A stretch of DNA of 53,126 bases. It comes from a virus. Taxonomy: Duplodnaviria > Caudoviricetes. The stretch is from IMG/VR virus record IMGVR_UViG_3300023059_000274, positions 1 through 53,126 of that record; one strand, written 5' to 3'. Shown piece by piece: positions 28,226 through 28,317 of this stretch. Under the pieces are notes generated by a model that saw only the letters and a list, made by a program, of their open reading frames with translations, was not told the DNA's origin and did not search any database. The first letter of the stretch is position 1. The number at the start of each line of letters is the position of its first letter. The position numbers were made by a program, and so were the translations under genes.

Positions 28226-28317
28226 TGGAGAAGGATGGAATCGAACCACCGTTTCAAGATGGTAGTAACTTTCGCTTTCCCACTAGTCTTGCGTCCTAAC
28301 CCCTAGACGACTTCCCC
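28226..28317 (-). ncRNA. tRNA-like RNA 2 (Ala identity elements, 27-nt anticodon loop)
   Basis: Acceptor GGGGAAG/CTTCTCC+A (G3.U70); D region GTCTAGGGGTTAGGAC; stem CAAGA/TCTTG; T arm GGTGG-TTCGATT-CCATC. Confidence 0.88.

What the first reader, a model, noticed from the sequence alone, without database searches (positions are those of the whole stretch)
28226..28317. tRNA-like RNA with the complete alanine identity set and a 27-nt anticodon loop
Seen: acceptor GGGGAAG/CTTCTCC-A gives G1-C72, G2-C71, G3.U70, G4-C69 and A73. The anticodon stem CAAGA/TCTTG encloses CTAGTGGGAAAGCGAAAGTTACTACCA (27 nt, exactly 20 extra), which can fold as TAGTG/TACTA with an inner AGC-GAAA-GTT GNRA hairpin. The D region (GTCTAGGGGTTAGGAC) looks Glu/Asp-like, so the body is chimeric. 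Established: AlaRS charges on G3.U70 plus A73 and ignores the anticodon, as for tmRNA. Inference: an alanylatable RNA that cannot decode normally; it could be a decoy, a mini-tmRNA-like ribosome ligand, an aminoacyl donor, or a tRNA with a tiny non-self-splicing intron.
Basis: partly seen in the sequence, partly recalled or inferred. Interest (0 to 1): 0.85.

Follow-up and report, generated by a model that had tools for sequence, protein, structure and literature searches.

The report
Anticodon-less alanine-type tRNA look-alike in prophage
A soil prophage and its relatives carry a well-kept tRNA-shaped gene that keeps the marks read by the alanine-charging enzyme but has a closed hairpin where the anticodon should be, so it probably carries alanine without reading codons; what it is used for is unknown.

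Summary
The window is a temperate Bacteroidota-type siphophage; the gene lies in a minus-strand RNA cassette between tail chaperone and tape measure. Relatives hold look-alikes in the same slot. In 11 aligned sequences the cloverleaf is kept by compensatory changes (93.9% paired; 0 of 500 shuffles as good), and D arm, T loop and tertiary-pair positions are invariant. The anticodon arm differs in every lineage (lengthened, closed or deleted), with no shared anticodon. Of 23 distinct elements, 19 keep G3.U70 and 22 keep A73. Pair 51-63 is always U-A or A-U, unlike ordinary phage tRNA-Glu or tRNA-Ala, which suggests weak EF-Tu binding. Intron and mini-tmRNA readings are not supported: no usual splice motif, no tag frame, and RNA-library contigs show only the unspliced form. 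Best reading: a conserved, non-decoding, probably alanine-charged tRNA-like RNA of unknown, probably non-ribosomal, use. Charging, a partner and a function are untested. This scan earlier noted similar alanine-type, anticodon-defective tRNA look-alikes in unrelated phages.

The parts
28226..28317 (-). 92-nt anticodon-less tRNA-like gene (Ala-type acceptor, Glu-type body)
   Evidence: Rfam RF00005 50.4 bits; own model R1 89.7 bits; identical copies in another viral record and a metagenome contig
28311..28317 (-). acceptor 5' strand GGGGAAG (positions 1-7)
   Evidence: sequence; pair table
28226..28233 (-). acceptor 3' strand CTTCTCC (66-72) plus discriminator A73; no encoded CCA (next letters CTT)
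   Evidence: sequence; G3.U70 in 19 of 23 and A73 in 22 of 23 related elements
28293..28308 (-). D arm GTCT-AGGGGTTA-GGAC, tRNA-Glu type; nearly invariant in relatives
   Evidence: (invariant columns)
28255..28291 (-). anticodon arm: 5-bp stem (28287-28291 with 28255-28259) around a 27-nt insert-bearing loop (28260-28286) that folds into a closed hairpin with a GAAA tip
   Evidence: stem kept by compensatory changes in relatives (helix 3); loop content unrelated between relatives
28234..28250 (-). T arm GGTGG-TTCGATT-CCATC with U51-A63
   Evidence: 51-63 is U-A or A-U in 23 of 23 family elements, against 0 of 49 tRNA-Glu and 0 of 7 tRNA-Ala in the background set
28468..28700 (-). upstream Leu-type tRNA-like (acceptor GAACAGA/TCTGTTC-A) swollen to about 233 nt, with an extra 22 nt in the D loop and a spare T-arm-like piece
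   Evidence: sequence; shorter homolog in L033 (36.6 bits); R1 partial hit 28529-28545; fold, (that script took 28467-28698, two letters short at the 5' end)
27794..28213 (-). lipoprotein gene (139 aa) inside the cassette
   Evidence: phrog_11227 at 8.6e-33 and phrog_200; present beside the tRNA-likes only in G004 among 8 relatives
27615..27687 (-). ordinary tRNA-Trp(CCA)
   Evidence: ARAGORN; Rfam 51.7 bits
27378..27530 (-). second Leu-type tRNA-like, 153 nt, with a large anticodon-arm insert
   Evidence: Rfam 33.6 bits with 94 letters in place of 15; ARAGORN -i call is implausible
27318..27347 (-). G+C-rich hairpin followed by a T-rich stretch at the end of the cassette. Its 3' arm (27320-27330) can pair 11 bp (1 G.U) with insert letters 28273-28283
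   Evidence: sequence; helix search. In G001/L334 the hairpin lies 46 nt after the tRNA-like (duplex z -4.2). It was not called by the terminator scan. X3's RNA-library contig ends near it (27315)

Best explanation
This is a functional, phage-borne tRNA-like RNA that no longer decodes. SHOWN: it has an L-shape-compatible cloverleaf kept by selection. It has the alanine acceptor set (G3.U70, A73, G1-C72, G2-C71, G4-C69) on a tRNA-Glu-type core. Its anticodon arm ends in a closed hairpin that differs in every lineage. INFERRED: it is transcribed with the neighbouring tRNA and tRNA-like genes from the minus-strand cassette. It is cut out by RNase P and a 3' nuclease, receives CCA, and is charged with alanine by the host AlaRS, which reads the acceptor stem and not the anticodon. 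Its T stem carries U51-A63 instead of the G51-C63 of ordinary tRNA-Glu and tRNA-Ala, so Ala on this body should bind EF-Tu weakly. The anticodon arm is also too long for the decoding site. Most likely it therefore acts off the ribosome, either as a private alanyl carrier for an unidentified transferase or as a ligand or decoy for a protein that reads the alanine acceptor end. Losing the anticodon would also keep a Glu-bodied, Ala-charged RNA from mistranslating.
For: (1) It is a real tRNA-like gene: 50.4 bits on RF00005. (2) Purifying selection. In 11 sequences from phages whose tape-measure proteins are 47-69% identical to the window's, 93.9% of pair cells are paired and 10 of 21 pairs show changes on both sides. 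Covariation is 0.422 against 0.193 in shuffles (0 of 500 as high) and falls to 0.07-0.13 when partners are slid. U8, A14, G15, two D-loop G, A21, the variable-loop C and most of the T loop are invariant, while flanking DNA is unalignable. (3) Alanine set: G2-C71 and G4-C69 in 11 of 11, G3.U70 in 9 of 11, while pairs 5-7 covary. Among 23 distinct slot elements, 19 have G3.U70 and 22 have A73. These include elements with an Ala-type body (G010, L366, L371b) and one 59-nt element with no anticodon arm (L374b). The acceptor and T arm are what stay constant. (4) No decoding: ARAGORN gives Thr, Ser, Leu, Pro, His, Leu, '???' or nothing for eight relatives, and the arms fold as closed hairpins of 8 to 28 loop letters. 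(5) T stem: 51-63 is U-A in 19 and A-U in 4 of 23. In ordinary phage tRNAs from the same scans it is G-C or C-G in 49 of 49 Glu and never U-A or A-U in 7 Ala. Passages of PMC7826273 say the first three T-stem pairs set EF-Tu affinity, and that the non-proteogenic tRNA-Gly of S. aureus carry A49-U65, U50-A64, A51-U63. (6) Slot conservation: every one of G000-G008 and G010 has one strong R1 hit between chaperone and tape measure. (7) The co-located tRNA-likes are Leu-type. LeuRS, like AlaRS, does not read the anticodon (recalled).
Against: Nothing shows the RNA is made as a small stable species, given CCA, or charged. Four of 23 elements have lost G3.U70 (G005 A-U with G73; G002b A-U; L363 A-U; L369 G-C), so the pair is not indispensable. 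The sample is biased: one scan pattern fixed GGGG at positions 1-4, one fixed CTCCA, and model R1 was built from the family. In the less biased survey by chaperone homolog, only 11 of 20 loci held a G3.U70/A73 element, 2 held only variants without G.U, and 7 held none within 8 kb. No aminoacyl-tRNA-using enzyme, SmpB, RNA ligase or splicing enzyme was found among 65 ORFs (Pfam; PHROGs). No neighbouring protein gene is conserved with the element. The slot also holds plain tRNA debris (spare T arms in the window, G001 and G010), so some of this may be tolerated decay. The EF-Tu inference rests on an analogy (A51-U63 in S. aureus) and on recalled rules; U51-A63 itself was not looked up.
Confidence: 0.5

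Rival explanations
1. A stable tRNA-shaped processing or scaffold element that is never charged. It would serve as an RNase P/3'-nuclease cutting signal that punctuates the cassette transcript, in the manner of mascRNA at the MALAT1 3' end, or as a stable carrier for the variable hairpin.
For: It is co-oriented and closely spaced with other tRNA and tRNA-like genes and a lipoprotein gene, ahead of one hairpin at the cassette end. RNA-library contigs of two runs span about 27315-28997 and 26992-29317 in one piece. Four elements lack G3.U70. In the window type, the insert can pair 11 bp with the hairpin at the end of the cassette, which hints at a cis role.
Against: Punctuation needs only an acceptor/T-arm helix. 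It does not explain the invariant Glu-type D arm and tertiary-pair positions, nor the retention of a weak G.U pair plus A73 in 19 of 23. The hairpin payloads are mostly self-paired, and in G008 the payload is just a 4-letter loop, so they make poor antisense or aptamer cargo. The insert-to-hairpin pairing is seen only in the window/G001 type.
Confidence: 0.2
2. A decaying, redundant tRNA gene: recombination debris of a tRNA slot, carried along without function.
For: The slot holds obvious fragments and swollen genes: the 233-nt Leu-type gene with a spare T arm, several T-arm pieces upstream in G001, and two '...CTCCA' 3' fragments in G010. Bodies are mosaic, with a Glu-type or Ala-type D arm on the same acceptor. 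Seven of 20 relatives have no such element within 8 kb. Earlier scan notes judged some similar elements in other phages to be relics.
Against: Decay does not produce compensatory changes in all three variable helices or invariant tertiary positions across phages with 47-69% identical tape-measure proteins. The element is an island of conservation in unalignable intergenic DNA. Anticodon stems stay paired (81% of cells; 5 of 5 pairs with changes on both sides).
Confidence: 0.15
3. A true decoding tRNA with a 20-nt intron that is removed by an unknown bacterial or phage activity. ARAGORN's reading is Thr(AGU) after splicing at 37/38.
For: ARAGORN -i models it this way. An alternative pairing (UAGU with ACUA, 4 bp) is flanked by a 3-letter 3' bulge (CCA) and a 5-letter 5' bulge, loosely like a relaxed bulge-helix-bulge (my reading). 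Four Bacteroidota chromosomes hold Glu-type tRNA-likes with a 21-22-nt insert at one fixed place.
Against: Relatives give no common anticodon or insert position. The minimum-energy fold puts both 3-letter unpaired stretches on the 5' strand. An AGU anticodon on an Ala-charged body would mistranslate. No letters are left out across 28226-28317 in contigs of three RNA libraries, and no joint touches it (tables 4 and 5), although contigs cannot exclude a rare or small spliced form. No splicing endonuclease or RNA ligase domain was found in the window. G008 and L374b have no insert yet still lack an anticodon loop.
Confidence: 0.05
4. A miniature tmRNA-like ribosome-rescue ligand: Ala-charged, entering stalled ribosomes without an anticodon.
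For: It shares the tmRNA tRNA-like domain's GGGG.../...CUCCA acceptor with G3.U70 and a T arm. UAG occurs in many of the inserts. The 59-nt L374b lacks an anticodon arm altogether.
Against: There is no tmRNA call by ARAGORN or Rfam. There is no resume codon, tag frame or pseudoknot, and 27 letters cannot hold them. A full D stem and anticodon stem occupy the place that SmpB takes in tmRNA (recalled). No SmpB-like gene was found. The inserts are not conserved.
Confidence: 0.03

Closest known systems
Non-proteogenic tRNA-Gly isoacceptors (NP1-NP3) of Staphylococcus aureus, glycine donors for FmhB/FemA/FemB (PMC7826273; abstract and discussion passages read)
   Same: Chargeable tRNAs kept away from translation. 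Their first three T-stem pairs are of the 'less tight' A/U kind (A49-U65, U50-A64, A51-U63). Most family members here have A49-U65, U50-A64 (or C-G) and U51-A63.
   Different: Those keep a normal anticodon loop, are chromosomal, and have known transferase partners. This RNA has no anticodon loop, is phage-borne, is of alanine type, and has no partner identified.
tRNA-like domain of tmRNA (SsrA)
   Same: Alanine identity through G3.U70 on a GGGG/CUCC acceptor, a T arm and no anticodon (recalled features).
   Different: 92 nt, with a complete D stem and anticodon stem, no mRNA-like domain and no pseudoknots. Not recognised as tmRNA by ARAGORN or Rfam.
tRNA-like stable RNAs in phage tRNA clusters (T4 species 1 and 2; T5 RNA1 and RNA2). 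Recalled, and named in earlier scan notes e1-6079901 and e1-6029869; not checked here
   Same: Small tRNA-shaped, non-decoding RNAs of unknown function, encoded among phage tRNA genes.
   Different: No sequence relation was tested. An alanine acceptor set is not known to me as their hallmark. This family lies in a tail-module slot of temperate Bacteroidota-type siphophages.
Phage and bacterial tRNA-Glu(UUC)
   Same: D arm GUCUAGnGGUnAGGAC with U13.G22, a 4-letter variable loop and the T loop. Ninety-nine matches to that pattern are tRNA-Glu.
   Different: The acceptor stem is Ala-type, the UUC loop is gone, and 51-63 is U-A instead of G-C.
Intron-bearing pre-tRNAs of archaea and eukaryotes (bulge-helix-bulge, 37/38)
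   Same: A short insert inside the anticodon loop. The same search pattern found many archaeal intron-bearing tRNA-Glu genes.
   Different: No canonical bulge-helix-bulge, no conserved anticodon or insert position among relatives, and a bacterial virus context.
mascRNA / MALAT1 3'-end tRNA-like element (recalled)
   Same: A tRNA-shaped RNA with a defective anticodon arm, cut out by tRNA-processing enzymes.
   Different: Eukaryotic, not known to be aminoacylated, and without an alanine identity set.

Membership tests
tRNA superfamily (Rfam RF00005) | Score at or above the curated gathering score, over the whole model | tested here: met
   50.4 bits against 29, model positions 1-71
tRNA superfamily (Rfam RF00005) | Cloverleaf helices supported by covariation; tertiary-pair positions present | tested here: met
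   93.9% of cells paired, 10 of 21 pairs with changes on both sides, 0 of 500 shuffles as high; U8, A14, G15, two D-loop G, the variable-loop C and most of the T loop invariant
Decoding tRNA (any isotype) | 7-letter anticodon loop with U33 and a usable anticodon | tested here: not met
   27-letter loop folded into a hairpin; default ARAGORN finds no gene here
tRNA-Ala | G3.U70 with A73 (G2-C71 and G4-C69 in support) | tested here: met
   Sequence; kept in 19 of 23 related elements. That these are the AlaRS determinants is recalled knowledge.
tRNA-Ala | NGC anticodon and an Ala-type body | tested here: not met
   No anticodon loop; the D arm and variable loop are Glu-type
tRNA-Ala | Charged by AlaRS | not testable with these tools
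   Needs an aminoacylation assay
tRNA-Glu | Glu-type augmented D helix (U11-A24, U13.G22, 4-letter variable loop) | tested here: met
   (helix 2)
tRNA-Glu | UUC/CUC anticodon loop and a Glu-type acceptor | tested here: not met
   the acceptor is GGGGAAG/CTTCTCC-A and there is no UUC loop
tmRNA | mRNA-like domain with resume codon, tag frame and stop, plus pseudoknots | tested here: not met
   No tmRNA by ARAGORN or Rfam; only 27 letters lie between the anticodon-stem strands
Protein-spliced tRNA intron (bulge-helix-bulge) | Two 3-letter bulges on opposite strands, 4 bp apart, at the exon-intron borders | tested here: not met
   The minimum-energy fold has both 3-letter unpaired stretches on the 5' strand. 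Only a relaxed look-alike exists in an alternative pairing.
Protein-spliced tRNA intron (bulge-helix-bulge) | Same anticodon and insert position in homologs | tested here: not met
   ARAGORN -i gives Thr, Ser, Leu, Pro, His, Leu, '???' or none for eight relatives
Protein-spliced tRNA intron (bulge-helix-bulge) | A spliced RNA exists | tested here: inconclusive
   Contigs of 3 RNA libraries carry the unspliced form with no joint at the gene; contigs cannot show small or rare RNAs
Group I intron in tRNA | Ribozyme core of about 200 nt or more | tested here: not met
   The insert is 20 letters; no Rfam intron family matched
Non-proteogenic (non-ribosomal donor) tRNA | Weak EF-Tu T-stem pairs | tested here: inconclusive
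   51-63 is U-A or A-U in 23 of 23, against G-C or C-G in 49 of 49 tRNA-Glu. The affinity itself was not measured, and the U51-A63 value was not looked up.
Non-proteogenic (non-ribosomal donor) tRNA | A cognate aminoacyl-tRNA-dependent transferase | tested here: not met
   None among 65 ORFs by Pfam and PHROGs; many ORFs have no family, and the host genome was not examined

The most novel reading that the evidence does not exclude
Temperate Bacteroidota phages maintain a dedicated class of anticodon-less, AlaRS-chargeable tRNA-like RNAs. Leu-type ones lie beside them, and both synthetases ignore the anticodon. Their T stems are tuned to avoid EF-Tu. They would supply aminoacyl groups to, or be sensed by, a machine that is not the ribosome and is not yet identified. 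This scan has met similar alanine-type, anticodon-defective tRNA look-alikes in unrelated phages, so this could be a widespread, unrecognised use of aminoacyl-tRNA chemistry by viruses, comparable to Mom's use of Gly-tRNA to modify DNA (PMC13219725; abstract read).
Probability: 0.25. Interest if true: 0.85.

Novelty: new variant of a known kind. Interest (0 to 1): 0.62.

Why it matters
Phage tRNA genes are usually explained by codon supply or by escape from anticodon nucleases. Neither explains an RNA that keeps everything a tRNA needs except the anticodon, and that also keeps the one base pair that commits it to alanine. If it is charged, it is a natural alanyl carrier that cannot feed the ribosome, which points to an unknown tRNA-dependent reaction or sensor in phage-host biology. 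If it is not charged, it is a conserved tRNA mimic whose target must read the acceptor end and the elbow. Either way the family gives a ready-made test set. It offers natural variants with G3.U70, A3-U70 or G3-C70, with Glu-type or Ala-type bodies, and with long, short or missing anticodon arms. One member lies in a cultured strain (a Sphingobacterium suaedae prophage, locus L292).

Tried and rejected
(1) Partner genes. Pfam and PHROGs on 65 ORFs found only ordinary temperate-siphophage genes: RecT, DnaB, terminase, portal, capsid, tape measure, lysozyme, repressor, an AAA ATPase, SRAP and HNH. The three unknown minus-strand genes next to the cassette (25162-27279) occur only in the nearest relative, G001, so they are not conserved partners.
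(2) Long-range pairing of the insert with flanking RNA. It is strong in four unrelated Bacteroidota chromosomal tRNA-likes and in the G001 arrangement, but absent in the other seven family members tested. I rejected it as a family feature.
(3) A shared UAG or D-loop-like word (UAGUGG and similar) recurs in several inserts. It was seen by eye only, and I make no claim from it.
(4) Shine-Dalgarno-like or antisense roles for the inserts: no GGAGG, and the inserts are mostly self-paired. Dropped.
(5) Isolated-phage relatives: blastn of the 92 nt against 50,697 phage records found nothing.
(6) A metagenome scan gave only two hits, both identical to known types.
(7) The genome-collection scan was dominated by archaeal intron-bearing tRNA-Glu genes plus one eukaryote-contaminated contig.
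(8) RNA evidence. 21 of 24 listed runs are RNA libraries holding the stretch. All are kept as contigs, and one RNA run has a 46.7-kb contig over the whole prophage region, so DNA carry-over cannot be excluded. Depth differences between contigs were not used. The skip 28491-28968 seen in one X3 contig with a 25-letter side was not interpreted.
(9) Literature. Three full-text searches found no paper on anticodon-less Ala-type tRNA-likes in phages. One search was rejected for a bad term. PMC1869040 is not held.
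Full report
WHAT IS THERE

The window is a 53,126-base IMG/VR provirus record. Its genes are those of a temperate siphophage: repressor-like regulators, RecT, DnaB, small terminase, SPP1-type portal, major capsid protein, a 1,567-aa tape measure, tail proteins and lysozyme. DNA similarity points to Bacteroidota phages. The tape measure resembles that of Croceibacter phage P2559S, the tRNA-Trp resembles one in Cellulophaga phage phi10:1, and another stretch resembles Chryseobacterium phages.

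The finding lies on the minus strand. Rfam's tRNA model matches 28226-28317 (-) over its full length at 50.4 bits (gathering score 29), with 25 letters where the model has 5 in the anticodon loop.
- acceptor GGGGAAG/CTTCTCC with G3.U70, and A73;
- D arm GTCT-AGGGGTTA-GGAC;
- anticodon stem CAAGA/TCTTG around 27 letters;
- a 4-letter variable loop;
- T arm GGTGG-TTCGATT-CCATC.

No CCA is encoded. Default ARAGORN does not call the gene. With introns allowed it calls Thr(AGU) with a 20-nt intron.

SURROUNDINGS

The gene is one of four tRNA-type genes on the minus strand, between the tail chaperone-like gene (24058-24552, plus strand) and the tape measure (29358-34061, plus strand). In transcription order they are:
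- a swollen Leu-type tRNA-like (28700-28468);
- this gene;
- a lipoprotein gene (28213-27794);
- an ordinary tRNA-Trp (27687-27615);
- a second Leu-type tRNA-like with a large insert (27530-27378);
- a G+C-rich hairpin followed by T-rich sequence (27347-27318).

Three more minus-strand ORFs of unknown family follow.

RELATIVES

A scan of viral contigs used this gene's D-arm-to-T-loop pattern with a free spacer and found 101 stretches.
- With the window's own locus added, my script counted 102 matches.
- 99 of them have the normal spacing and tRNA-Glu loops.
- 2 have the window's spacing: the window itself and an identical copy in another record.
- 1 (L033) has 13 extra letters.

Further scans were run. 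I also searched whole records, and searched 20 loci fetched through the tail-chaperone protein with a covariance model built from the family. Together these gave 23 distinct tRNA-like elements, nearly all from the same slot. One is a second copy elsewhere in G002, and one lies in a Sphingobacterium genome. The phage records are mostly about 50-57 kb.

In 8 relatives with 13-14 kb fetched, the chaperone and tape-measure genes flank the element wherever they were detected. The neighbouring protein genes are not conserved: the three unknown ORFs occur only in G001, and the lipoprotein only in G004.

IS IT UNDER SELECTION?

Eleven family sequences align cleanly outside the anticodon arm. On the cloverleaf:
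- 93.9% of 229 pair cells are standard pairs (shuffles 81.9%; 0 of 500 as high).
- 10 of 21 pairs have changes on both sides.
- The covariation score is 0.422, against 0.193 in shuffles and 0.07-0.13 when partners are slid by 1-3 columns.
- All 5 anticodon-stem pairs show changes on both sides.

The invariant positions are those that build the tRNA elbow and core: U8, A14, G15, two D-loop G, A21, the variable-loop C and most of the T loop. The phages are far apart. Their tape-measure proteins are 47-69% identical to the window's, and DNA beside the element cannot be aligned. The element is therefore an island of purifying selection. This argues against simple decay.

THE ALANINE SET

- In the 11-sequence alignment, G2-C71 and G4-C69 are invariant, G1-C72 holds in 9, and G3.U70 holds in 9 (2 are A-U). 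Pairs 5-68, 6-67 and 7-66 switch between A-U/U-A, A-U/G-C and G-C/A-U.
- Over all 23 elements, 19 have G3.U70 and 22 have A73.
- The acceptor and T arm stay constant while the rest changes. G010, L366 and L371b carry the same GGGGAAG/CTTCTCC-A acceptor on an Ala-type D arm. L361a and L374a have other bodies. L374b is a 59-nt form with no anticodon arm.

Caveats:
- The pattern fixed GGGG at 1-4, that fixed CTCCA, and R1 was trained on the family, so these counts are inflated by ascertainment.
- The least biased sample is the chaperone-anchored survey. Of 20 loci, 11 hold at least one G3.U70/A73 element, 2 hold only variants without G.U (L363 A-U, L369 G-C), and 7 hold none within 8 kb. Of those 7, L368 has two ordinary tRNAs and six have no tRNA hit.
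- G005 has A3-U70 and G73 in an otherwise near-identical gene.

That AlaRS reads G3.U70 and A73 and ignores the anticodon is textbook knowledge, recalled and not tested here.

NO ANTICODON

The anticodon arms share nothing but a paired stem.
- The window has 27 loop letters folding into two short helices under a GAAA loop.
- G002 has 20 loop letters.
- G003-G005 have a different hairpin with a GAAA or UAAA tip.
- G008 is of normal length (73 nt), but its arm is a closed hairpin with a 4-letter loop.
- ARAGORN with introns allowed gives Thr, Ser, Leu, Pro, His, Leu, '???' or nothing for eight relatives.

An intron in a working tRNA should leave one anticodon and one insert position, and it does not. 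The window's minimum-energy fold puts both 3-letter unpaired stretches on the 5' strand, which is not a bulge-helix-bulge. An alternative pairing gives only a loose look-alike. No splicing or RNA-ligase domain was found.

RNA DATA

The stretch 27300-28800 is held by 24 listed runs, 21 of them soil metatranscriptome libraries. Contigs of three RNA libraries and one DNA library were laid on 24000-30500.
- No letters are left out or changed at the gene, and no joint touches it.
- Two RNA runs have single contigs over the cassette (26992-29317 and 27315-28997).
- A third RNA run has a 46.7-kb contig over everything, so DNA carry-over is possible.
- Contigs cannot show small RNAs, ends or strands.

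This shows that the unspliced form is what the libraries hold. It is at most a weak hint of transcription.

T STEM

Pair 51-63 is U-A in 19 and A-U in 4 of the 23 elements. The comparison set is 164 distinct ordinary tRNAs called by ARAGORN in the loci of the first scan. There, 51-63 is G-C or C-G in all 49 tRNA-Glu and G-C, C-G or U.G in all 7 tRNA-Ala. U-A occurs in 22 of 164, mostly Met, Ile, Asn and Arg.

Passages of PMC7826273 make three relevant points:
- The first three T-stem pairs nearly alone set EF-Tu affinity for the tRNA body.
- The effect of the three pairs is additive.
- The cell-wall tRNA-Gly of S. aureus have the weak set A49-U65, U50-A64, A51-U63.

By analogy, Ala on this body should be a poor EF-Tu ligand. 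This is an inference. I did not find a value for U51-A63 itself.

WHAT IT MOST LIKELY IS

It is a conserved, L-shaped, non-decoding tRNA-like RNA that host AlaRS can probably charge and that is kept off the ribosome. What it then does is open.
- It may be a private alanyl donor. Precedents for tRNA-dependent chemistry outside translation are the Fem transferases, and phage Mu Mom, which moves glycine from Gly-tRNA to DNA (PMC13219725, abstract only).
- It may be a decoy or ligand for something that reads the alanine acceptor end.

Against the donor idea, no partner enzyme is visible, and no protein gene travels with the element. The Leu-type neighbours fit the first idea, since LeuRS also ignores the anticodon (recalled). 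However, at least one of them looks like recombination debris.

Rivals, in order of weight:
- an uncharged processing or scaffold element;
- tolerated decay;
- a true intron;
- a mini-tmRNA.

NOVELTY

I found no paper on such RNAs in three full-text searches. No isolated phage record has a blastn match. Earlier notes of this scan describe alanine-type, anticodon-defective tRNA look-alikes in several unrelated phages. Those are leads, not evidence. They do suggest that the window is one case of a wider, undescribed class. I rate it a new variant of a known kind (phage tRNA-like RNAs and non-proteogenic tRNAs).

LIMITS

- No supplements were read.
- PMC7826273 was read only in the passages returned by a term search, and PMC13219725 only as abstract and outline.
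- All other papers were seen only as search listings.
- T4/T5 tRNA-like RNAs, tmRNA anatomy, the mascRNA comparison and the AlaRS/LeuRS identity rules are recalled.

Noticed in passing
L299, L303, L312, L314 (GTDB genome contigs; element at about 1490-1586 of each locus): Four Bacteroidota chromosomes (a Chitinophagaceae MAG, Sediminibacterium and two unclassified MAGs) hold a Glu-bodied tRNA-like with a 21-22-nt insert right after C32. In each genome the insert is perfectly complementary (9-13 nt, different letters each time) to the 3' trailer, starting 6-9 nt after the discriminator and just before a terminator-like hairpin. At least two of these genomes (those of L314 and L312) also hold a normal tRNA-Glu(UUC). 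The L314 copy lies directly after dnaK. Unexplained.
   Followed up: partly
window 28273-28283 with 27320-27330 (minus strand): The insert of the tRNA-like can pair 11 bp (one G.U) with the 3' arm of the hairpin that ends the cassette. In G001 and metagenome contig L334 that hairpin lies only 46 nt after the gene (duplex z -4.2). In the window, 895 nt (lipoprotein gene, tRNA-Trp, Leu-type tRNA-like) lie between them. Other family members show nothing similar. It could be a lineage-specific anti-terminator-like contact or chance.
   Followed up: partly
window 28468-28700 and 27378-27530 (minus strand): Two Leu-type tRNA-likes (D arm GCGnAAnnGGTAGACGC, A73) have large inserts. The upstream one has 22 extra letters inside its D loop compared with its G002 homolog, plus a spare T-arm-like hairpin (about 28529-28545). 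Homologs in G002, G004, G005, G009 and G010 also lack a normal anticodon loop.
   Followed up: partly
window 27378-28225 versus G001 (L335) and L334: The nearest relative lacks the lipoprotein gene, tRNA-Trp and second Leu-type element. There the Ala-type gene is followed directly by the sequence (CTTCATAATTT...) that follows the Leu-type gene in the window, so the indel is bounded by tRNA 3' ends.
   Followed up: partly
L348 (G010) about 30630-31360 in record coordinates: One relative's slot holds a 68-nt Ala-bodied element with a mini anticodon hairpin, a Leu-type tRNA-like, an ordinary tRNA, and two further T-arm-plus-'...CTCCA' 3' fragments. The Ala-type 3' halves therefore recur within one slot.
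   Followed up: partly
L150, L178, L198, L203, L238, L241, L245, L260 (viral contigs): Other viral contigs hold GGGG.../...CTCCA acceptor-plus-T-arm RNAs of 62-92 nt with odd or missing middle parts. L150, L238, L245 and L178 come from records with no match to the window's tail-chaperone protein (three are small fragments); the rest were not tested. The pattern used fixed CTCCA, so their frequency cannot be judged.
   Followed up: no
L132, L134, L135, L138, L142 (viral contigs): Glu-bodied phage tRNAs with 11-27 extra anticodon-loop letters but non-alanine acceptors. L135 reads as CU-CUG-A plus an 11-letter hairpin plus A, that is, a possible Gln(CUG) loop with a small insert.
   Followed up: no
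L283 (contig of a 'Cryomorphaceae' MAG): It holds a U2 spliceosomal RNA (167 bits) and several intron-bearing tRNAs, so the contig is eukaryotic contamination of the bin.
   Followed up: yes
window 41557-43356 (-), 2655-4646 (+), 45248-45889 (-): An AAA_21/AAA_15 ATPase gene lies on the opposite strand after the lysis genes (a possible prophage-borne defence gene). There is also an SbcC-like ATPase beside RecT, and an SRAP-family gene.
   Followed up: no
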